DNA from: Candidatus Woesearchaeota archaeon
GTDB taxonomy: Archaea > Nanobdellota > Nanobdellia > SCGC-AAA011-G17 > GW2011-AR18
DNA length: 57,608 nt
Direction: 5' to 3'
Assembly: GCA_018302765.1 (NCBI GenBank)
Contig: JAGVZG010000005.1
Span: 1-57,608 of the forward strand
Below the pieces are notes generated by a model that was not told the origin of the DNA, did not search any database, and saw only the letters and a program-made list of their open reading frames with translations. Below are positions 11,366 through 21,633 of the stretch, one piece after another; the first letter of the stretch is position 1, and each line of letters opens with the position of its first letter. Made by a program: the position numbers and the translations under genes.

Positions 11366-11484
11366 GCCGCGATCGCCTAATCTGGTATGGCACCAGAAAT
11401 AATTATAGTTATTGGTGAACCTGGAAATAAATACCAATTAGCTGGACCCGAAAGGGTATCTCGGTTCAAATCCGGGTCGCGGCG
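11366..11484 (+). tRNA. tRNA-Ser(GGA) with two introns (30/31 at 11397-11419; 37/38 at 11427-11439)
   Basis: Acceptor GCCGCGA/TCGCGGC + discriminator G; T-arm CTCGG-TTCAAAT-CCGGG; long variable arm ACCC-GAAA-GGGT; after splicing, anticodon arm CCAGC-CTGGAAA-GCTGG; intron 1 forms a strict BHB (CACC/GGTG helix, AATAA/TTATT hairpin); no encoded CCA. Confidence 0.9.
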
Positions 11485-11510
11485 TTGGAAAGTAGGTTCA
11501 AAGCCGAGCA
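11474..11510 (+). repeat. attL: 13-bp core GGGTCGCGGCGTT (11474-11486) plus 18-bp arm (11493-11510)
   Basis: Core repeated exactly at 35233-35245; arm TAGGTTCAAAGCCGAGCA is a 16/18 inverted match to 35203-35220. Confidence 0.85.
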
Positions 11511-11551
11511 TTACTTTTGGTTTAAATACCCAAAAGTAAAGGAGGCTACCT

Positions 11552-12766: not shown

Positions 12767-13030
12767 TTATTTTTTTATTATTTTTAATATTTCCTTGACA
12801 TTATTATTTGTTTCAATTACTTTATTCTCAATATTAATAGAATTAATTACAACATATCTAAAGAATTCCGATATACTCTCAAAACCTCTTTCTTTTGCTC
12901 TACTTTTTATATCTTCTAATTCTGGAGTTGTTAATCTAACTTGTAGAATATTATTTCTTTTAAACGGTAAATTTAGCCCATTCAGCATATGTAGATAGTT
13001 CCATGGATTTATATAAACAATTTTGCGCAA
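12767..13030 (-). CDS. Ribbon-helix-helix (CopG/MobC-like) DNA-binding protein
   Basis: LQVRLTTPELEDIKSRAKERGFESISEFFRYVV pattern followed by a coiled coil; TTG start. Confidence 0.7.
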   Translation of the reverse strand: MRKIVYINPWNYLHMLNGLNLPFKRNNILQVRLTTPELEDIKSRAKERGFESISEFFRYVVINSINIENKVIETNNNVKEILKIIKK

Positions 13031-13137: not shown

Positions 13138-14184
13138 ATGGAAAAGCCTGAAAAAATCCATAAACTAGATATTATTGATAAGAAAATTCTCGCAGTTTTA
13201 TTAAAATCAGGCAGAATAGGAATGAAGGAATTAGCTGAAGTTATAAATAATCATTATCCTACTGTAATCAATAGAGTTAACAAATTAATAGAAATTGGAG
13301 TTATAAACAAATTCTATCCAGTATTGCAATTGCCTGGAATCGGCATTAGAAAGTGGATGAGTTTATATTTAATATTAAAACCAATGCCAGATGAAAAGAA
13401 AAATGAATTTGTTAAAGAATTCAAGAAAAATCCATTTTTAATTCAGATAATGGAATTAGAGGGGCAATATAGTTTTACTATGCTTTTAGTTTGTAATTAT
13501 ATAAAGGAAGCTTATGAAACAATAAATTACATAAAACAAGTCTGCGGTGATTACTTAAGTGATTTAAATACTAAAACTACTTTTACAATTTCTAACTTGA
13601 ACAGGCAGTTCTTTTTAGATGAAGAAATTAACTTAGATAAGAAAGAAATAACAACTGGATTTCAGCCAATAATAAACAAGACAAAATTAGTTCATCTTGG
13701 AACTCATGTTAAATTAAATGATAAAGACATTAAATTACTGAATTATTTAAAATTAAACGCTCGAGATACAGTAGAAGAAATAGAAGAAAAGACTAGAATT
13801 AAAAGACATGTAATAAATTATAAAATTGAAAAATATCTTAATGATAATTTGATAACTTATTTTACAATTGATATTAATCATTCTAAATTAGGTTATTACC
13901 AATATATTTTATTCCTAAATATGAAAGGTGATGTTAAGAAAAAGAAAATATTGATCGATGAATTGTACACTAAAACTAAGGAAGCTTATCACTTATTTGA
14001 GTATTTGGATTTTTGGGAAGTTGTAGTTACTTACTGTGTTAAAGACCAGAAAAGAATGAATGAAATAATTGATGATATTAAGAATAGATATGGTCCTGAT
14101 ATTCAGCATCAGCTTCTTTATATTAAAAAGAAACATAAAGTTGAACCTTATCCTGATGTTGAATTAGTTTATCCTAAAGACTAA
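13138..14184 (+). CDS. Tandem (two-unit) Lrp/AsnC-family regulator
   Basis: Two HTH units (LDIIDKKILAVL...; LNDKDIKLLNYL...), each followed by a RAM-like domain. Confidence 0.8.
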   Translation: MEKPEKIHKLDIIDKKILAVLLKSGRIGMKELAEVINNHYPTVINRVNKLIEIGVINKFYPVLQLPGIGIRKWMSLYLILKPMPDEKKNEFVKEFKKNPFLIQIMELEGQYSFTMLLVCNYIKEAYETINYIKQVCGDYLSDLNTKTTFTISNLNRQFFLDEEINLDKKEITTGFQPIINKTKLVHLGTHVKLNDKDIKLLNYLKLNARDTVEEIEEKTRIKRHVINYKIEKYLNDNLITYFTIDINHSKLGYYQYILFLNMKGDVKKKKILIDELYTKTKEAYHLFEYLDFWEVVVTYCVKDQKRMNEIIDDIKNRYGPDIQHQLLYIKKKHKVEPYPDVELVYPKD

Positions 14185-14304: not shown

Positions 14305-15075
14305 TTATTTCTCTTCTGTCTTATTCAAGTAAACAATTAACTTTTCAACAAATTCTTTCATATTTTTACATTCAGAATATAATTTTTGTGCATAAGAACA
14401 TCTCTGCATATGGCTTGGATAAGGATTTGTAAACCAGATAGCATGTTTTTTAATTTCAGGCAAATTCAAAACTATAAAATTCATAATCTCTAAAAAATCA
14501 TAATATTTGCTTTTTTCCAGTCTATTCTTAAAATATTTATGATAATAGTCTTCAACATAAATATGCATTAGTTCATGAGTTAAAGTATACTTAATATGTC
14601 CAGTAGCATCTTTATATCCGCCAGTATCTTCTATAGGAATGGAAAATACTTTTGTTCCGGGCTTTAATCTAAACATTGAAAATATGCTTAAATTAGCTGA
14701 ATATTTTCCTTTAGGCCATGGATGGCCGTTAAATACTTTAACAACAGATTCAAAAAACTCTTCAGAGCTTTCCTTCCATAAATTTTCTATTTCTTCTTTC
14801 TTCAATATTAATTCATTATAATTTTTCTTATAATATTCATCAATAAATTTAAACAATATTTTTTTAGCTTCATTTAAAGGCAAAGTTTTAGTTTTCTCAA
14901 GTTCAGGGAAGTCTCTAATATATTTAGAATATTCGTCCATTCCAGTAAGGTTATACTTTCTGTTTTTCAGAAAATAAGGTGCTATCCTCTTTTCTGCTTT
15001 AGCATCAACCTTAAATATTATCTTTGAAAGCGTATTCATTTTTATTAACTCCGTAATCTTCTTCTCCTTTAACAT
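14305..15075 (-). CDS. HExxH-motif protein (putative zinc metallopeptidase)
   Basis: THELMH with a downstream Glu (FLEIMN); likely start at 15039 (GGAG 8 nt upstream). Confidence 0.55.
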   Translation of the reverse strand: MLKEKKITELIKMNTLSKIIFKVDAKAEKRIAPYFLKNRKYNLTGMDEYSKYIRDFPELEKTKTLPLNEAKKILFKFIDEYYKKNYNELILKKEEIENLWKESSEEFFESVVKVFNGHPWPKGKYSANLSIFSMFRLKPGTKVFSIPIEDTGGYKDATGHIKYTLTHELMHIYVEDYYHKYFKNRLEKSKYYDFLEIMNFIVLNLPEIKKHAIWFTNPYPSHMQRCSYAQKLYSECKNMKEFVEKLIVYLNKTEEK

Positions 15076-15271
15076 ATTCTACTGTTCCAGTTGAGACACA
15101 AACACATGAAACACATGTTGGTCCACCATTATTACAGCCTGCACATGAATTACATGAAGCTAAATATATACTTCTGTTAGGTCCATCTGGTAATAATTCT
15201 AATAATGCTTGAGTAAATTCAGTTCCTTCAGGCAAACCTACTTTTACTTCATCTTCTAGTCTTCTTATCAT
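15011..15271 (-). CDS. Six-cysteine peptide, candidate RiPP precursor
   Basis: Cys-free acidic leader, then CNSCAGCNNGGPTCVSCVC (Cys 40, 43, 46, 53, 56, 58); SD GGGGAG sits directly after the radical SAM stop codon. Confidence 0.65.
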   Translation of the reverse strand: MIRRLEDEVKVGLPEGTEFTQALLELLPDGPNRSIYLASCNSCAGCNNGGPTCVSCVCVSTGTVEYVKGEEDYGVNKNEYAFKDNI

Positions 15272-15280
15272 TTTCTCCCC

Positions 15281-16606
15281 CTATGCTGCTTTCATTAATA
15301 TTCCCGACTTTAAACCATCAGATAATAATTCAATCATTTGATTATTAGCTAAAATTGCATCATTTACAATAATTCCATTATTTTGGTTTATTGCTGAAAT
15401 TATTTTCAAGTCGCTTTCTCTTGCAAATAAATATCTGTCTCCAGTTGCATACAAAACATAAATATTATCTGCTTCTTCTCTGAATCTTAATCCTCTGGCA
15501 GTATTTATTTTCTGTCCTGAATATAAATTTTCATTATGGACTTCTTTTCTTTCTAGTTTTATCGGCTTAACAGAATAAGGGTGCTTTGAATTTAAATCTC
15601 CAGCCATTCTTTGGGCCTCTGCTCTGCATGCTCCCTTACATAAATTTACTAAATCACAAGGCTGACAAGTTTCAGGCACATAACTATCTTCATTCCATTC
15701 ACTTAGTTTATCCCAAGCAGGTTTTAATCCTTCAGCCAAAATATTTCCATAACCAGTACTTACCATTGGGCAAGGCTTGACATTTCCCTGAGGATCTATC
15801 TGAATTATTGATCTTCCGGCAGTGCATGAAGCACTTTCAACTAAATATCTTAAATGAGGATGAGATTCCCAGACTCTGCAGTAGGGCAATGGATTAGTTA
15901 ATTTAACATGCATTCCAGTTTGATTTCTAACATGATTTAAATCTTCTAAATATTGCAAAACTTCTTCTGAACTTAAAGCATGGTCTAAATGCATTTGTCC
16001 TCCGTTATTTGAAGGAACAGCCTGAGCAGTTGAAAAACTTCCTACGCCTAAAGAATGAGCAAACTTTCCTGTTTCTAAAACTTGATCTAAATTATGCTTT
16101 GAAACAACCATGTTTGCAGCAACATAAATTCCAGCATTTAACAATCTTTCAATACCTCTTAATGTTTTTTCATGAGAACCTTCTTGATTAGTTACTTTAT
16201 CATGAATTTTTGAATCATAAGAAATTAGGCTAGTCATTACTCCAATAACTCCTGAATCTTTTAATCTTCTTGCATCATCTTCAGTAATTAATGTTGCATT
16301 TGAGTTTATTGTTACATCAACTCTGTTTCTAGCTAAAGCTTCAATTGAAGAAAATAATCTGTCTCTCACACTGAATACTTCTCCGCCTGTTAGACTTACA
16401 CTAAAAACTTCATTTCTTACTAACTCTTCTGCTATTTCTACAAATCTATCTGCTTGAGTTCTTTCTCTTTTAACTAATTTTAACTGGACTAAACCATTAT
16501 CATTAGAAAATCTTTCCTCATTGTAACAATGAGAGCACGCTAAATTACATGCATATGTTAATTCCATCTGTGCATATAGCGGTGCTTTAAGCCTGAAGTT
16601 TTTCAA
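15281..16606 (-). CDS. Radical SAM/SPASM protein with probable C-terminal RRE (PqqD-like) domain
   Basis: CNLACSHC (Cx3Cx2C), TGGE, SPASM cysteines CTAG...KPCP...CQPCDLVNLCKGAC; about 70 aa C-terminal extension with a three-strand/helix pattern; TTG start with GGGAG. Confidence 0.9.
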   Translation of the reverse strand: MKNFRLKAPLYAQMELTYACNLACSHCYNEERFSNDNGLVQLKLVKRERTQADRFVEIAEELVRNEVFSVSLTGGEVFSVRDRLFSSIEALARNRVDVTINSNATLITEDDARRLKDSGVIGVMTSLISYDSKIHDKVTNQEGSHEKTLRGIERLLNAGIYVAANMVVSKHNLDQVLETGKFAHSLGVGSFSTAQAVPSNNGGQMHLDHALSSEEVLQYLEDLNHVRNQTGMHVKLTNPLPYCRVWESHPHLRYLVESASCTAGRSIIQIDPQGNVKPCPMVSTGYGNILAEGLKPAWDKLSEWNEDSYVPETCQPCDLVNLCKGACRAEAQRMAGDLNSKHPYSVKPIKLERKEVHNENLYSGQKINTARGLRFREEADNIYVLYATGDRYLFARESDLKIISAINQNNGIIVNDAILANNQMIELLSDGLKSGILMKAA

Positions 16607-16733
16607 TTCTTACTCCCAAGACCTCTTAGATAAAATGATTCTATAAAGGTTTAAAAGCTCTTCTGTTCCCACGTAATTAATTTAGGAAAAAAGTGTAAAA
16701 ATTCTTAGAAAATTGAAAGATTTATTAGTTCAA

Positions 16734-17155: not shown

Positions 17156-19699
17156 TTAGTAATTTGTAGCCAATTCGTAAGCTTCAATTAATTCAATCAG
17201 TTTTTCGAATGTTTTAATATTTTGATTTTCATCAAATATTTTTTGTTTAACTTTTATATATTTCCACTTTTTATTAGTCAATTCTGAAGCATCATTACAC
17301 CATTCTATAGCTCTCTTGTCTTTTAATTCCACATCTGTAGTTTCTGCACCTTTTGTTTCAACTATAAAAAATCCATTATTTGTTTCAACTATAAAATCAG
17401 GTAAATAGTAAGAAATGCCTTTATTATTATTAACATATTCAATATAAAAATTTAAGTTTATATCATTTTTAATATACTTTTTAACATCTTTTGCATATTC
17501 TAAGAATATACAAAAACGACCTTCTAAGTCATTATCTACTGGTATAAGATTTAAAATACACTTTTTAGGAGTATATACTTGCTTTCTTGTCAAAAAAGGA
17601 TTAATTTGTGAAGCCTTTTTAGGCTCAGAACTTATTTTCACTTCTTGTGGTTTAATGGTTAAAGCATTGATAACTCTGGGAAATAATGTTAATAAATATG
17701 ACGCAATATTTTTTTCTATAAATTGATTTAAAAAAAGTTTATTATTAATTTCTTCTTTTTTTAATTCTCTGCCAAATAATCTTTTAATAATATATTCTTT
17801 TAACTTAGGAATTAACTCATAATTCTTAGAAGGTATTTTACATTCTCTAAGTATTATATTGGAATAATAACCTACTATTGCTTCAAAGTTTTCAGGTATT
17901 GGTTGTGTCCATTCATCTTTCCAAACTTCTATATTTGTTAAAGCCTCTCTACCTCTAGCTATCTTTTTAATAGTATAAGATTTAAGATCAAGTTCGAATG
18001 GGCCTTTTGGAAGATTTTCTACTTTTATATCATTGAATGAACGATTTATTCTAGTATATTTTGGTGAAATACTTGGAATTTCTAAATCATATTTTATTTT
18101 TTCTGCATCAACGAAAATATTAGTAATGCTTGGTAAATCTTTTTCTTTAATTCTATCTAGTTTAACTCCCTCTTTTTTTAATTCTACTTCAATAAAATTT
18201 ACAAAAGCACTAGAACCAAATACATCTACAGTTTCTTTAAATCCTGATTCTGGACCAAACATTAATCTTAAACCCCTGCCAAGCGTCTGTTCTGGAAGAA
18301 TATTTGCTTGAGATGTATAAGGCCTTAAACCCACAATTACATTTACATTTTTAACATCCCAACCTTCTCTAAGCATAAGAACGCTCACAACTGCCCTATA
18401 TTTATCATAATCGGAATCTAAGTTCCTTGATTCTTTTTTTAATTTAATCCATTCTTTTTCGCTTATATCTCCTTTTAAATTTGTATGAATTAATAGTACT
18501 TTTCCCTTTAATTCAGCTTTAGTTTCCAAATAGTCTCTAATATCTTCTGCTTCTTTAGTTTTATTTGCCATAAAAAATATAATTGGATTTTTATTTACTT
18601 TTGTCATAGCATCTCTATATTTCTTCCATCTTCTTACTCCTGCTTCAATATAATCTCTGTAGATAATATCTGCTCTTTCAGAAGGAGTTTCTTTTGCGTT
18701 TTCAACTTCTCCAATTATAGGATATTTTACAATTCTATTGACAATTGCATCAGCTAGTGGGAAGTCAGTTATTATCCATTCAAACAGCTTACCACCGTCC
18801 TGTTTCTTAGGTGTAGCAGAAAAATCTAGTTGAAATCCAAAAGTTTTATTATTATTTCTGAAGTTTTTAAAAACTTTTTGTATAAATTCATTCCATTTAG
18901 ATTCTGGATCCCATACATGATGCGCTTCATCATTAATTATAGAAATATCATTATTTTTTTGTATATCTTCAAATATCAGTTCATAAGCTGTTTTTTCTCT
19001 TGGTTTTGTACCAATTATTATTTCTACAGGATTTAAATTATTCGTATCGATAAAACGCTCATAGAGTTTTTGTACATTAGTTAAATAAATTCTACCTTTA
19101 GTCGATCTACTGGTCATTTCATCTTCCAATATAACATCTACATCCCAATAATTTTGAAATTCTATTGGTATTATGGGATCATTCTTAAAAATTTTTCCCC
19201 CTTCCAAATCTTCTCTTAATCTATCTTGAACCGCAATATTTGGAGCAATTATTAAAAAGTTTTTTGTAAACTCTTTATTATTCTCAAGTAAATTATTAAA
19301 AAAACTCCAAACAATAGCAAGAGCCATAACTTTAGTTTTTCCAGTCCCAGTAGCCATTTTAAAACAATATTTGGCAAATAAATCATCGTGAGGATTATAA
19401 GCAACTTTCTTTTTAATATCATATTTAATAATCAGATCTTTTAAACTTCTAATTTTCATAACTTCATATAAATAAATTAAAGTTTCAATTGATTCTCTTT
19501 GACAAAAATAATATCTAAACTCTTTTTTATTAATAAGATGGCCATCATTAAACCAAAAGTTAAGAAGTGTTTTTGTAGTTTGAGATGCCCCTATATACCC
19601 TGCTGCTCTCCATTTATCTACTTCTTCTCGAATTTTAGGAACTAAATGGGCTGATGTTTCTATTCTTTTTTCTGGTTTATAGAAAGGTCCATCATTCAT
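17156..19699 (-). CDS. res: Type III restriction endonuclease subunit
   Basis: MATGTGKT Walker A, DEAHH, FSATP, LREGWD, QTLGRGLR, C-terminal PDFIV...VETKG. Confidence 0.9.
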   Translation of the reverse strand: MNDGPFYKPEKRIETSAHLVPKIREEVDKWRAAGYIGASQTTKTLLNFWFNDGHLINKKEFRYYFCQRESIETLIYLYEVMKIRSLKDLIIKYDIKKKVAYNPHDDLFAKYCFKMATGTGKTKVMALAIVWSFFNNLLENNKEFTKNFLIIAPNIAVQDRLREDLEGGKIFKNDPIIPIEFQNYWDVDVILEDEMTSRSTKGRIYLTNVQKLYERFIDTNNLNPVEIIIGTKPREKTAYELIFEDIQKNNDISIINDEAHHVWDPESKWNEFIQKVFKNFRNNNKTFGFQLDFSATPKKQDGGKLFEWIITDFPLADAIVNRIVKYPIIGEVENAKETPSERADIIYRDYIEAGVRRWKKYRDAMTKVNKNPIIFFMANKTKEAEDIRDYLETKAELKGKVLLIHTNLKGDISEKEWIKLKKESRNLDSDYDKYRAVVSVLMLREGWDVKNVNVIVGLRPYTSQANILPEQTLGRGLRLMFGPESGFKETVDVFGSSAFVNFIEVELKKEGVKLDRIKEKDLPSITNIFVDAEKIKYDLEIPSISPKYTRINRSFNDIKVENLPKGPFELDLKSYTIKKIARGREALTNIEVWKDEWTQPIPENFEAIVGYYSNIILRECKIPSKNYELIPKLKEYIIKRLFGRELKKEEINNKLFLNQFIEKNIASYLLTLFPRVINALTIKPQEVKISSEPKKASQINPFLTRKQVYTPKKCILNLIPVDNDLEGRFCIFLEYAKDVKKYIKNDINLNFYIEYVNNNKGISYYLPDFIVETNNGFFIVETKGAETTDVELKDKRAIEWCNDASELTNKKWKYIKVKQKIFDENQNIKTFEKLIELIEAYELATNY

Positions 19700-21633
19700 T
19701 TTATAGTGACTTCCTTTATTGTACTTGTGTCATTACCAAAAATATCAATCACCTTAATTAATATTTTATATTTTCCAGGTTTAAATTCATGAGAATTAGT
19801 TTCTAACTTTAAATTCGGCGTATCATCACTTCTATAGGCTTGCCATTCATTATGAAATACAGAATTATAGTTCCAATCAACAGCCCAATAATCAATATAA
19901 TCACTCCATTTACTAATTTTCTTTTGGGCTTCTTCAGGAATTGAAGCAACATTTGGGATGATAAAGTCATTTAATTTTACTTTTATCTTATTTTTATCTT
20001 TTAGTAACTCGACTTGTAAATGTGCTAATTCGTAAAACTCTATATCTCCTGCATCTACAGCTCTTTTATCCATAACTTCTCTTGGTATAATTCTTAAGGA
20101 TAAATTAATATCAAACAGGTCTTTAGCTTCTTTTATTACAGAATCATTTAAACCCATCTCCCATTCCCAGCCTAAAATATCTAAATCACTAAATCCTGCT
20201 TTTTTACATTCTTTAAAAACATCAAGAATTTCTATTTTTGTAACTGGAGAATCAACTAATCCAACATGAACTGCCTTATTTCCTTTTTTTCCATGAATAA
20301 ATTCAAAATTATCTAATGGCATAGCATTATAGAGTTTGACTAAAAAATTAACATAATTTTTATAATTCTCTAAATTTTCAGAAGCCCAATATTGTCGTTC
20401 ATATTTACCAAGATTTAAAACCTCAAAAGGATTACATGTTGGAATATCTAGTAATCTTTTTCTTATCGTATGAATTGAAAATCTTCCAATATCGCAACCT
20501 ACCCATTTTCTTTCCATTTTTTCCGCTACAGCCACTGTAGTTCCAGAACCACAGAAGAAATCAGCCACTAAATCTCCAGCATTTGACGAAGCTTCTATAA
20601 CTCTTTGTAAGACCTGTTCTGCATTTTCAGTAGGATATCCTGTAGAAAAAGAATAACCAGGTATATCTGTCCAATTGGTATCTATCAATTGATCTTCTTT
20701 TTCCTCGACAAAATATTCAGGTCTAGGATCATCTTTTTTACACTGGGGGCATTTATTCCATTTACCCTCATAGTGTTCATATTTACAATTTTTACATCTA
20801 AATCTTAATTTTTTTACATCAATCATTTGGTTTATATTATCTTGGGAATATTTGAAGTGTTTACCTACTGGCGGAACTAATTCCTTACCAAAAAATAATT
20901 TTGGACTTCCTTGACCTGCTGAATCATCCATATGCCTCCAAAATGCTTCTCTTTTTTCTTGTAATGCTTTTAAAACTTTATTTAGACTAACATTTTCACT
21001 TTTAGAATAAAAGAAAAGAGAGTCTGTTGCAGTAGGAAAAACTCTTTGAGTTTGAGATTCAGTTACATTTTTTCTTGTCCTATTAATTATTATTTCATTC
21101 CTAAAGTTTTCATATCCGAATATTTCATCTAAAATTAATTTAATATAATGAGAATAATGATAATCAAACCTTACATAAATAGAACCATCTTCTGCAAGTA
21201 AATCTCTCATTAACTTTATTCTTTCATACATATATTGTAAAAAAGAAGAAGGGCCTTCCTTCCACATATTTCTATAAGCAATTTCTTCTATTGCAGAAGG
21301 TTCTTTAGTAACTTCACCCTTATCACCTATTTTAATATTTATGTTCATATTAGTTCCAGTAAAAAATGGTGGATCAATATAGATTAATTTTATTTTACCA
21401 GCAATCTGAGAATCTTTTAATAAAGAAGCAAGAACATATTTATTATCTCCCCAAATGAGTCTATTTAACCAACTGCTTTCATTAGTTTTAGGAATGTGTC
21501 TTAATAATGTATCCTTACCTGTTCTAGATATAGATACTGTTTCTATTTTTTGAAATGGTAATAAAACTTTTTCAACTTCTAATTTTTTACCTTTCCAATT
21601 AATTTCTACATCAGCCATCAAAATACTTACCAA
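19696..21633 (-). CDS. mod: Type III DNA adenine methyltransferase subunit
   Basis: YIDPPF (motif IV) before DFFCGSGTT (motif I), beta class; 4-nt overlap with res. Confidence 0.9.
   Translation of the reverse strand: MVSILMADVEINWKGKKLEVEKVLLPFQKIETVSISRTGKDTLLRHIPKTNESSWLNRLIWGDNKYVLASLLKDSQIAGKIKLIYIDPPFFTGTNMNINIKIGDKGEVTKEPSAIEEIAYRNMWKEGPSSFLQYMYERIKLMRDLLAEDGSIYVRFDYHYSHYIKLILDEIFGYENFRNEIIINRTRKNVTESQTQRVFPTATDSLFFYSKSENVSLNKVLKALQEKREAFWRHMDDSAGQGSPKLFFGKELVPPVGKHFKYSQDNINQMIDVKKLRFRCKNCKYEHYEGKWNKCPQCKKDDPRPEYFVEEKEDQLIDTNWTDIPGYSFSTGYPTENAEQVLQRVIEASSNAGDLVADFFCGSGTTVAVAEKMERKWVGCDIGRFSIHTIRKRLLDIPTCNPFEVLNLGKYERQYWASENLENYKNYVNFLVKLYNAMPLDNFEFIHGKKGNKAVHVGLVDSPVTKIEILDVFKECKKAGFSDLDILGWEWEMGLNDSVIKEAKDLFDINLSLRIIPREVMDKRAVDAGDIEFYELAHLQVELLKDKNKIKVKLNDFIIPNVASIPEEAQKKISKWSDYIDYWAVDWNYNSVFHNEWQAYRSDDTPNLKLETNSHEFKPGKYKILIKVIDIFGNDTSTIKEVTIK

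What the first reader, a model, noticed from the sequence alone, without database searches (positions are those of the whole stretch)
14305..16606. Radical SAM/SPASM + six-Cys peptide + HExxH protein: candidate archaeal RiPP system on a mobile element
Seen: three co-oriented, tightly coupled genes. The peptide SD begins immediately after the radical SAM stop. The 86-aa peptide has a leader, a Cx2Cx2Cx6Cx2CxC core and a follower, and the enzyme carries a probable C-terminal RRE. Established: SPASM enzymes with RREs crosslink Cys-rich precursors (SCIFF/ranthipeptides, sactipeptides), and HExxH proteins act as peptidases or tailoring enzymes in such clusters. The spacing differs from SCIFF and the RRE is usually N-terminal. 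No exporter is adjacent; a tandem Lrp regulator converges on the cluster. Inference: a new thioether-crosslinked peptide class.
Basis: partly seen in the sequence, partly recalled or inferred. Interest (0 to 1): 0.8.

Follow-up and report, generated by a model that had tools for sequence, protein, structure and literature searches.

The report
Radical-SAM cysteine-peptide maturation cassette
A tiny-genome (DPANN) archaeon carries, inside a mobile defence-gene island, a conserved kit of an iron-sulfur radical enzyme, a small cysteine-bearing peptide and a zinc-protease-like protein that most likely makes a cross-linked modified peptide of unknown chemistry and purpose.

Summary
Three co-oriented, translationally coupled genes lie on the minus strand:
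- a radical SAM/SPASM enzyme (15281-16606);
- an 86-aa peptide with six Cys (15011-15271);
- an HExxH protein (14305-15039).

17 of 18 distinct loci holding homologues of the enzyme carry a small Cys-rich ORF right behind it, usually with a strong Shine-Dalgarno site. These loci come from DPANN archaea, CPR bacteria and one Bdellovibrionales MAG. Most are followed by a homologous HExxH protein, or by another peptidase-like protein in the same slot.

The enzyme's last 80 residues are predicted to fold as a PqqD-like peptide-recognition element (RRE). The HExxH protein is a confident zincin-fold model with invariant H, E, H and a downstream E. It belongs to a large family with no Pfam model.

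The six Cys are not the conserved feature. The close clade keeps a leader motif and a GCxxCNxGG core.

A tandem Lrp-like regulator is co-conserved. The cassette repeatedly sits beside restriction genes.

A heme-synthesis reading is excluded. Thioether chemistry is plausible but untested.

This scan has already found cassettes of this general kind on other DNA (25 notes, at least 21 genomes). Verdict: an uncharacterised variant of radical-SAM modified-peptide (RiPP) systems.

The parts
16607..16733 (-). Upstream intergenic region. It holds a TATA-like TTTATA (16642-16647) and a GGGAG Shine-Dalgarno site (16613-16617) ahead of the TTG start.
   Evidence: Read directly. Promoter function is inferred only.
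15281..16606 (-). Radical SAM/SPASM peptide maturase, 441 aa. The CX3CX2C motif is at C20/C24/C27.
   Evidence: Pfam Radical_SAM E 3.8e-23 and SPASM 21.9 bits against a cut-off of 21.5. No NCBIfam equivalog cut-off is met. AF2 model pLDDT 92.7. Nearest solved folds are SkfB, SuiB, anSME, CteB, TigE and PqqE.
15626..15880 (-). SPASM auxiliary-cluster region, residues 243-327. Seven Cys are invariant: C243, C261, C279, C314, C317, C323 and C327.
   Evidence: Invariant in 34 homologues. The CX12GX4C and CX2CX5CX3C spacings are read. There is no conserved Cys after C327.
15284..15523 (-). C-terminal PqqD-like RRE domain, residues 362-441. It has four strands followed by three helices.
   Evidence: Secondary structure of the model, with pLDDT 92-96. 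In the Atlas structure search this part matches a PqqD (PF05402) cluster at TM 0.65/0.62 over 79 residues. Feature hits are to PqqD-family chaperone and MftB clusters at 0.77-0.78. The domain is conserved in 17 homologues. There is no sequence-level Pfam hit.
15161..15271 (-). Leader region of the precursor peptide, about residues 1-37. The N-terminal motif is conserved: M-[VI]-[KR]-x-[LI]-E-[ED].
   Evidence: Alignment A3. The same motif is present in the G190 relative, which has a different core. The leader/core boundary is inferred.
15098..15160 (-). Core region, residues 38-58. It holds six Cys, and the family-conserved part is C43-x-x-C46-N-N-G-G.
   Evidence: C43 is invariant, and C46, G49 and G50 are nearly invariant.
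15011..15097 (-). Hydrophilic Tyr/Lys/Glu-rich follower (residues 59-86) plus the stop codon. It overlaps the start of the HExxH gene by 29 nt.
   Evidence: Tails of variable length are present in all close relatives.
14305..15039 (-). Zincin-fold HExxH...E protein, 244 aa. HELMH lies at 14563-14577 and the invariant Glu184 at 14488-14490.
   Evidence: H155, E156, H159 and E184 are invariant in 37 homologues. AF2 pLDDT 92.8. VIA Z 8.1-6.6 to M1 aminopeptidase catalytic domains and Z 5.6 to thermolysin. No Pfam or NCBIfam family is hit.
13138..14184 (+). Convergent tandem Lrp/AsnC-type wHTH protein, 348 aa. It is the probable cassette regulator.
   Evidence: HTH_AsnC-type E 1.7e-10, with a second HTH at residues 195-240. 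Homologues at 66%, 48% and 44% identity sit in the same convergent position in L057, L059 and L066.

Best explanation
This is a ribosomal peptide maturation (RiPP-type) cassette.

Shown by sequence: the three genes are translated as a coupled unit.

Inferred steps:
1. The 86-aa precursor is captured through its conserved N-terminal leader motif by the PqqD-like recognition domain fused to the C-terminus of the radical SAM/SPASM enzyme.
2. The enzyme's CX3CX2C cluster cleaves SAM to a 5'-deoxyadenosyl radical, which abstracts a hydrogen from a core residue.
3. A Cys thiol then closes an intramolecular cross-link, most likely a thioether as in sactipeptides and ranthipeptides. The thiol may be held at the auxiliary cluster that lacks its fourth Cys ligand. 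The conserved target is the C-x-x-C-N-x-G-G segment.
4. The zincin-like HExxH...E protein then trims the leader and/or the hydrophilic tail.
5. The convergent tandem Lrp-like protein probably regulates the cassette.

The product's role is unknown. No exporter is linked, and the cassette travels with restriction and defence genes on an integrase-bearing island.
For: Co-conservation of the cassette:
- In the close clade (42-73% identity), 9 of 10 distinct loci have a peptide ORF right behind the enzyme and 8 of 10 then have a homologous HExxH protein.
- In the second tier (29-34% identity; CPR bacteria, Woesearchaeota, Bdellovibrionales), all eight loci have a Cys-rich ORF behind the enzyme.
- GGAGG-type Shine-Dalgarno sites precede most of these ORFs, and dN/dS is 0.19-0.49.

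Enzyme:
- The motifs are intact in 34 homologues.
- The nearest solved folds are all peptide-modifying SPASM enzymes: SkfB, SuiB, anSME, CteB, TigE and PqqE.
- The C-terminal domain is PqqD-like by predicted structure.

Peptide:
- The leader motif is conserved across different core types.

HExxH protein:
- It has an invariant gluzincin-type signature and a zincin fold.
- The two HExxH subfamilies are homologous (hhalign probability 99.8%, E 1e-29).
- In other loci the same slot is filled by Peptidase_MA_2 (L012, L019) or by a transglutaminase-like protein (L015; L110). This argues for a peptidase role.
Against: - No chemistry has been observed.
- No curated maturase family is met; the best NCBIfam score is 122 bits against a cut-off of 500.
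- The RRE is seen only in predicted structure. Pfam PqqD is not hit, and the Atlas feature scores of 0.77-0.79 lie in the range that shuffled proteins can reach.
- Fold-search Z scores of about 8 for the HExxH protein are moderate.
- Many members of the HExxH family are not next to a radical SAM gene, so the protein is not exclusive to this system.
- No exporter or immunity gene was seen.
- One close homologue (L063) has no Cys peptide downstream.
Confidence: 0.7

Rival explanations
1. The cassette and the enzyme-peptide relation are the same, but the HExxH protein is an Fe(II)/alpha-ketoglutarate-dependent oxygenase that hydroxylates or oxidatively cleaves the peptide, like ChlB-HExxH, BpmH or PflC. 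In this reading it is not a hydrolytic zinc peptidase.
For: Such HExxH enzymes share the zincin fold and work in RiPP clusters, some fused to radical SAM domains (PMC12636437). The ChlB HExxH domain (8s5f) appears in the fold search at Z 5.3.
Against: - The NCBIfam scan at E up to 0.1 did not return the HEXXH-motif domain family used to define these oxygenases (IPR026337).
- M1 peptidase domains score higher, at Z 8.1-6.6.
- The slot is filled by recognised peptidase-type families in other loci.
- These hosts are ultra-small, largely anaerobic-habitat organisms, and the partner enzyme is oxygen-sensitive. This last point is an inference.
Confidence: 0.12
2. The peptide is not a secreted natural product. 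It is instead the precursor of an intracellular cofactor or a cross-linked metal- or redox-active small protein. Models are PQQ, mycofactocin and the QhpC subunit matured by QhpD.
For: - The gene logic matches PQQ and mycofactocin: peptide, SPASM enzyme, PqqD-like domain and peptidase.
- MftC and PqqE are among the better NCBIfam hits, at 101 and 72 bits.
- MftB-like and PqqD-like clusters are the nearest to the C-terminal domain.
- No exporter is linked, the precursor has no signal peptide, and it carries a long hydrophilic tail.
Against: - All scores are far below the family cut-offs.
- The core is hypervariable between relatives, with 2-9 Cys and different spacings. That is typical of bioactive RiPPs and atypical of cofactor precursors.
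- The distribution is patchy and accessory: 4 of 401 sampled genomes of the phylum, inside a mobile island. A housekeeping cofactor would not be expected there.
Confidence: 0.13
3. This is not a peptide system. The radical SAM enzyme is an AhbD/NirJ-type tetrapyrrole enzyme, and the tandem Lrp-like protein is an AhbA/B- or NirDL-type siroheme decarboxylase.
For: The best NCBIfam hits of the enzyme are AhbD (122 bits) and NirJ2 (112 bits). The tandem Lrp-like protein has a faint AhbB hit at E 0.003.
Against: - The scores are a quarter of the cut-offs.
- ALAD (PF00490) and porphobilinogen deaminase (PF01379) are not found in this genome, which is 100% complete by marker genes, while the controls ring in 11 of 14 genomes.
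- The conserved coupled peptide and the RRE domain have no place in that pathway.
Confidence: 0.02
4. The small ORF encodes an ordinary Cys-rich metal-binding mini-protein that is merely co-transcribed and is not modified.
For: Cys, Asp and Asn-rich cores could bind metals. No modification has been shown.
Against: - The tight coupling to a SPASM enzyme bearing a peptide-recognition domain is maintained across domains of life, while the core sequence changes freely.
- A conserved leader combined with a variable core is the RiPP pattern.
Confidence: 0.05

Closest known systems
Ranthipeptide systems (SCIFF with CteB; freyrasin with PapB; NxxcB)
   Same: A SPASM radical SAM maturase with an RRE acts on a short Cys-rich precursor encoded next to it. 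Many relatives have Cys/Asp/Asn-rich cores that suit Cys-to-side-chain thioethers. CteB is among the nearest solved folds.
   Different: - The RRE is C-terminal, not N-terminal.
- The PapB model scores 75 bits against a cut-off of 340, and no SCIFF-type family was returned for the enzyme or the peptide.
- The core signature C-x-x-C-N-x-G-G and the long follower are not those of SCIFF.
- The zincin partner family is new.
- The hosts are DPANN archaea and CPR bacteria.
Sactipeptide maturases (SkfB, AlbA)
   Same: SkfB is the best match to a solved structure by both sequence profile (E 6e-21) and fold (E 1.7e-17). The chemistry is thioether formation from Cys.
   Different: - SkfB scores 64 bits against a cut-off of 300, and AlbA 75 against 850.
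- SkfB has a twitch-type single auxiliary cluster and an N-terminal RRE.
- The precursors are unrelated.
PQQ and mycofactocin pathways (PqqA/D/E/F; MftA/B/C/E)
   Same: The component logic is the same: peptide, PqqD-like recognition module, SPASM enzyme and peptidase. The AuxII cluster lacking a fourth Cys recalls the non-Cys ligand of PqqE; this comparison is from memory and was not tested.
   Different: The recognition module is fused at the C-terminus. There are no downstream tailoring enzymes. The cores are hypervariable. The cassette is accessory and island-borne.
Alpha-ketoglutarate-dependent HExxH enzymes of RiPP clusters (ChlB-HExxH, BpmH, PflC/PosC)
   Same: These are zincin-like HExxH proteins working beside, or fused to, radical SAM enzymes in RiPP clusters (PMC12636437).
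   Different: There is no sequence match to that family. The fold match is weaker than to M1 peptidases. The invariant downstream Glu fits a gluzincin metal site.
Proteusin radical SAM epimerases
   Same: They are a precedent for a C-terminally fused RRE (PMC7470986).
   Different: They differ in radical SAM subfamily, chemistry (epimerisation) and precursor type (nitrile-hydratase-like leaders).

Membership tests
Radical SAM superfamily | CX3CX2C motif binding the SAM-cleaving [4Fe-4S] cluster, in a partial TIM-barrel core | tested here: met
   C20, C24 and C27 are invariant in 34 homologues. Pfam Radical_SAM scores 82.9 bits against a cut-off of 29.5. The model matches radical SAM folds.
SPASM subfamily | The seven-Cys motif CX9-15GX4C ... 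CX2CX5CX3C ... C | tested here: inconclusive
   The CX12GX4C (C261-C279) and CX2CX5CX3C (C314-C327) spacings are present and invariant, together with the upstream C243. The final downstream Cys is absent from the whole family. Pfam SPASM scores 21.9 bits against a cut-off of 21.5.
RRE / PqqD-like domain | A three-stranded sheet followed by a three-helix winged-helix bundle | tested here: met
   The predicted topology of residues 362-441 has pLDDT above 90. TM is 0.65/0.62 to a PF05402 cluster. This is a predicted structure only.
RRE / PqqD-like domain | Sequence match to PqqD (PF05402) or a solved RRE | tested here: not met
   None of 17 C-terminal domains hit PqqD at E up to 10. The profile search against PDB sequences gave nothing relevant. 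RRE-Finder's own models were not available.
RRE / PqqD-like domain | Binds the leader of the cognate precursor | not testable with these tools
   Needs binding assays or a co-fold.
Ranthipeptide maturases (PapB NF047865; SCIFF maturase) | Score above the curated equivalog cut-off | tested here: not met
   PapB scores 75.1 bits against a cut-off of 340. No SCIFF maturase model appears among the 25 best hits listed.
Ranthipeptides / sactipeptides | Cys sulfur linked to a C-alpha, C-beta or C-gamma carbon of an acceptor residue | not testable with these tools
   Requires mass spectrometry or NMR of the modified peptide.
Sactipeptide maturases (SkfB TIGR04403, AlbA NF012164) | Score above the curated cut-off, with an N-terminal RRE | tested here: not met
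   Scores are 64.3 against 300 and 74.6 against 850. The match begins at residue 103-110 of those models, so the N-terminal RRE is absent here.
AhbD / NirJ tetrapyrrole radical SAM enzymes | Equivalog score, and a tetrapyrrole pathway in the genome | tested here: not met
   AhbD scores 121.7 against 500. ALAD and porphobilinogen deaminase were not found in a genome that is 100% complete by marker genes.
Gluzincin (clan MA) metallopeptidases | HExxH plus a downstream Glu as third metal ligand, on a zincin fold | tested here: met
   H155, E156, H159 and E184 are invariant in 37 sequences. VIA gives Z 8.1 (rmsd 3.5, 161 residues aligned) to the tricorn F3 M1 domain and Z 5.6 to thermolysin. The metal site geometry could not be inspected, and catalysis is untested.
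Peptidase_MA_2 (PF13485) | Pfam match | tested here: not met
   There is no hit for the window protein. Only the proteins in the same slot in L012 and L019 match, at E 2.3e-11.
Alpha-KG-dependent HExxH oxygenases (IPR026337) | Sequence membership | tested here: not met
   The family is not returned by the NCBIfam scan at E up to 0.1.
Alpha-KG-dependent HExxH oxygenases (IPR026337) | Fold likeness to the ChlB HExxH domain | tested here: inconclusive
   8s5f scores Z 5.3, rmsd 4.9, with 148 residues aligned. This is below the M1 peptidases but is not excluded.
Lrp/AsnC regulators | An AsnC-type HTH plus a RAM/AsnC ligand-binding domain | tested here: inconclusive
   The HTH_AsnC-type match is E 1.7e-10, and a second HTH lies at 195-240. 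No AsnC_trans_reg domain was detected.

The most novel reading that the evidence does not exclude
The cassette makes an intracellular or contact-delivered cross-linked peptide with a new linkage centred on the conserved C-x-x-C-N-x-G-G segment. It is carried as cargo of defence islands and has been exchanged between CPR bacteria and DPANN archaea. It would serve in antiviral defence, or in the symbiont's dealings with its host, rather than as a classical bacteriocin.
Probability: 0.12. Interest if true: 0.8.

Novelty: new variant of a known kind. Interest (0 to 1): 0.55.

Why it matters
The papers found here name no characterised radical-SAM modified peptide from an archaeon. A 2025 survey notes that rSAM-type RiPP clusters occur in DPANN archaea but that archaeal products are scarcely known (PMC12144867).

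DPANN archaea and CPR bacteria have minimal genomes and depend on hosts. A maintained, horizontally spread peptide-maturation kit in them points to a function worth its cost.

The clade gives three concrete handles for experiment:
- a SPASM enzyme with a C-terminal recognition domain and an auxiliary cluster that lacks one Cys ligand;
- a short conserved core motif;
- a large zincin-like family with no Pfam model (at least 1,657 clusters at 50% identity).

All the parts are small and easy to express, so chemistry and function are directly testable.

Tried and rejected
- Word-based search with the 86-aa peptide found only itself. Relatives were found only through the neighbouring enzyme.
The contexts of the more distant HExxH hits (P0073, P0084, P0057) therefore could not be read.
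- Pfam and PDB-sequence searches with the C-terminal domain gave no PqqD hit.
- Foldseek on the HExxH model gave no match at E up to 0.001. VIA-align gave the zincin matches instead.
- PADLOC returned only a generic radical-SAM-core likeness to viperin (51 bits), and nothing for the peptide or the HExxH protein.
- No att-like direct repeats of 20 nt or more bound the island.
- ARAGORN and Rfam found no tRNA near the integrase. The island's borders and integration target therefore remain unconfirmed here.
- Base composition does not mark the cassette as foreign: GC3 is 0.09-0.22, like its neighbours.
- The heme/siroheme reading was rejected.
- Literature searches for this family in DPANN or CPR organisms found only a general antiSMASH survey.
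Full report
**What is there**

- a 441-aa radical SAM/SPASM protein (15281-16606, TTG start preceded by GGGAG);
- an 86-aa ORF (15011-15271);
- an HExxH protein.

The enzyme's TAG stop is followed directly by GGGGGAG, three A residues and the peptide ATG. The six Cys of the peptide lie at residues 40, 43, 46, 53, 56 and 58.

Alignment with homologues moves the start of the HExxH protein to ATG 15039, giving 244 aa. That start is preceded by GGAG and overlaps the peptide gene by 29 nt.

The genome is about 1.02 Mb in 28 contigs and is scored 100% complete by marker genes. Public relatives of its genes are named Nanoarchaeota and Woesearchaeota, so it is a DPANN archaeon.

**Is the peptide gene real, and is it linked to the enzyme?**

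A word-based search with the peptide found nothing but itself. I therefore collected homologues of the enzyme and read what lies behind them.

Close clade (42-73% identity; DPANN MAGs and groundwater metagenomes):
- 9 of 10 distinct loci have a 63-89-aa ORF starting within about 12 nt of the enzyme's stop, or overlapping it.
- 8 of the 10 then have a homologous HExxH protein.
- L064 lacks the HExxH protein, and L063 lacks the peptide.

Second tier (29-34% identity):
- The organisms are Parcubacteria, Patescibacteria, Microgenomates, Woesearchaeota, a further DPANN genome (G190) and one Bdellovibrionales MAG.
- All eight loci have a 36-85-aa ORF with 2-9 Cys behind the enzyme.

Further support:
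- GGAGG-type ribosome-binding sites precede most of these ORFs.
- Pairwise dN/dS of the peptide genes is 0.19-0.49, against 0.08-0.21 for the flanking enzymes.

**The enzyme**

- Pfam finds Radical_SAM and, just above its cut-off, SPASM.
- No NCBIfam equivalog comes near its cut-off. The best is AhbD at 122 bits against 500. PapB, AlbA, SkfB, MftC and PqqE are all far below theirs. The same holds for CPR and Woesearchaeota relatives.
- Ten Cys are invariant in 34 homologues. Three form the CX3CX2C motif. Seven are SPASM Cys (C243, C261, C279, C314, C317, C323, C327) with canonical spacings. The usual last Cys is missing from the whole family.
- By analogy with anSME (from memory, not tested), this would leave the second auxiliary cluster with three Cys ligands.
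- The AF2 model is confident (pLDDT 92.7).
- Its nearest solved structures are all peptide- or protein-modifying SPASM/twitch enzymes: SkfB, SuiB, anSME, CteB, TigE, PqqE and ChlB.

**The C-terminal domain**

- Residues 362-441 are conserved in the family.
- They are modelled as four strands followed by three helices, at pLDDT 92-96.
- The Atlas structure search with this part alone returns a PqqD (PF05402) cluster at TM 0.65/0.62 over 79 residues. It also returns RRE-bearing ThcOx/SagB proteins.
- The feature search returns PqqD-family chaperone and MftB clusters, but at scores of 0.77-0.79, which count only as leads.
- Sequence models do not detect it.
- C-terminal RRE fusions are known in proteusins (PMC7470986). 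The thioether maturases matched here, such as SkfB and AlbA, carry theirs N-terminally.

**The peptide family**

- The close clade shares an N-terminal leader motif, M-[VI]-[KR]-x-[LI]-E-[ED], followed by hydrophobic positions.
- It also shares a core whose only constant part is G-C-x-x-C-N-x-G-G, corresponding to C43 and C46 of the window peptide.
- The number of Cys ranges from 2 to 6. The six-Cys pattern is shared only with the closest relative (L057).
- All members end in a variable, hydrophilic tail rich in Tyr, Lys and Glu.
- The G190 relative has the same leader start but a quite different, Cys/Asp-rich core.
- A conserved leader with a variable core is the pattern expected if the leader is what the fused RRE recognises.
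- More distant relatives have cores rich in Cys, Asp, Glu and Asn. That composition suits Cys-to-side-chain thioethers, but it suits metal binding equally well.

**The HExxH protein**

- It has no Pfam or NCBIfam family.
- H155, E156, H159 and E184 are invariant across 37 homologues.
- The AF2 model is confident (pLDDT 92.8).
- Foldseek finds only weak matches, all of them M1 or M4 peptidases.
- VIA-align gives Z 8.1-6.6 to catalytic domains of M1 aminopeptidases, Z 5.6 to thermolysin, and Z 5.3 to the alpha-ketoglutarate-dependent HExxH domain of ChlB. These Z values are moderate.
- The family is large: 1,657 clusters at 50% identity with E up to 1e-3.
- The window type and the CPR/Woesearchaeota type are homologous over their full length (hhalign 99.8%, E 1e-29).
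- The family is not confined to this system. It occurs in 28 of 401 sampled genomes of the phylum. Several copies have no radical SAM neighbour, while others follow a shorter SPASM enzyme with the peptide upstream, or with a methyltransferase in between.
- The best argument for a peptidase role is substitution. At the same position, L012 and L019 carry a Peptidase_MA_2 protein. L015 carries a protein that hits Transglut_core at E 1.4e-4. The L110 protein in that slot has no Pfam hit; I judged it similar to the L015 protein only from a short shared C-terminal motif.
- The transglutaminase fold is that of the lasso-peptide leader peptidase (this point is from memory).

**Fourth gene and context**

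- The convergent 348-aa protein has two wHTH regions of the Lrp/AsnC type.
- It recurs in the same convergent position in L057 (66% identity), L059 (48%) and L066 (44%). It is probably the cassette's regulator.
- The surroundings in the window are a tyrosine integrase, a NikA-like RHH protein, type III res and mod genes, a Fic protein and a DUF2779 nuclease.
- In other loci the gene just upstream of the cassette is a type III res gene (L057), GmrSD (L066) or an Eco57I/MmeI-type enzyme (L064).
- I could not define the ends of the island. No att repeats were found, and neither ARAGORN nor Rfam found a tRNA there.

**Distribution and phylogeny**

- The RRE-bearing enzyme type was found in 4 of 401 sampled genomes of the phylum, in three families.
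- It was not found in the two same-genus genomes, which are 73% and 87% complete.
- In a maximum-likelihood tree the family is a supported clade (95/92) apart from other SPASM enzymes.
- The close clade is strongly supported (100/99).
- The archaeal sequences nest, with moderate support (84/87), among CPR and Bdellovibrionales sequences.
- This fits exchange between ultra-small bacteria and archaea. I do not claim a direction of transfer.

**Rivals**

- Tetrapyrrole reading. It was suggested by the AhbD/NirJ2 hits and the AhbA/B-like architecture of the tandem Lrp protein. It is excluded because the genome has neither ALAD nor porphobilinogen deaminase.
- Oxygenase role for the HExxH protein, and a cofactor or subunit-type product. 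Both remain open at low probability.

**Comparison with what is known, and novelty**

- The system works like a sactipeptide or ranthipeptide cluster but meets none of the curated family definitions tested.
- It differs in four ways: domain order, core motif, the missing SPASM Cys, and its zincin partner.
- The literature held here mentions rSAM RiPP clusters in DPANN archaea only as antiSMASH counts (PMC12144867).
- Earlier notes of this scan describe cassettes of the same general kind on other DNA (25 notes, at least 21 genomes). None shares sequence words with this HExxH protein.
- I class it as a new variant of a known kind. The chemistry and biological role are untested.

Noticed in passing
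window 13138-14184; L057:4805-5827; L059:2607-3623; L066:6028-6441: A tandem Lrp/AsnC-like two-wHTH protein of about 340 aa is co-conserved with the cassette at 44-66% identity, always convergent on it. It looks like a dedicated regulator. No ligand-binding domain is recognised.
   Followed up: partly
window 17156-21633; L057:2-2314; L066:529-2322; L064:2-2392: In four independent loci the gene next to the cassette is a restriction or defence gene: type III res/mod, type III res with RE_endonuc, GmrSD, and an Eco57I/MmeI-like enzyme. The cassette seems to travel in defence islands.
   Followed up: partly
L066:4874-5827: A 317-aa protein with an adenylate/guanylate cyclase domain (E 2.5e-9) lies between the HExxH gene and the Lrp-like gene in one relative.
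   Followed up: no
L015:2143-2634; L110:2864-3472: In a Microgenomates locus (L015) the slot of the HExxH protein is taken by a 163-aa protein that hits Transglut_core at E 1.4e-4. The 202-aa protein in the same slot in the DPANN locus L110 has no Pfam hit; I judged it similar to the L015 protein only from a short shared C-terminal motif. In L110 a methyltransferase-like gene follows; I named it from its sequence motif only and did not scan it.
   Followed up: partly
L102 (G118:C7) and L106 (G300:C4): Variant architecture in other DPANN genomes: a Cys/Asp-rich peptide comes first, then a 348-350-aa SPASM enzyme without the C-terminal domain, then an HExxH protein of the same family. L103 and L105 insert a methyltransferase between the enzyme and the HExxH protein.
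   Followed up: partly
L101 (G301:C1), L104, L107, L108: Strong members of the HExxH family have no radical SAM neighbour. One follows an RtcB-like gene, and one lies beside ribosomal-protein-like genes. Those neighbours were named from their ORF sequences and were not scanned. The family therefore has roles beyond this cassette.
   Followed up: no
L066:2495-3945; L014:1660-2973: In two relatives the enzyme gene is split into two ORFs. This could be a frameshift, a pseudogene or an assembly error.
   Followed up: no
window 11366-11550: Another note of this scan proposes a doubly interrupted tRNA-Ser here as the integration target. ARAGORN and Rfam at E up to 0.1 report no tRNA in this stretch. 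No matching direct repeat was found elsewhere in the window.
   Followed up: partly
window 12767-13030: An 87-aa ORF beside the integrase matches the NikA-like mobilisation protein family (28.2 bits against a cut-off of 27).
   Followed up: no
L012:2796-3218 and 103-2799: In the Woesearchaeota relative the cassette is preceded by a divergent 140-aa protein with its own H-E-x-x-E/H-like motif, a small RHH protein and an 898-aa Ser/Thr protein kinase.
   Followed up: no
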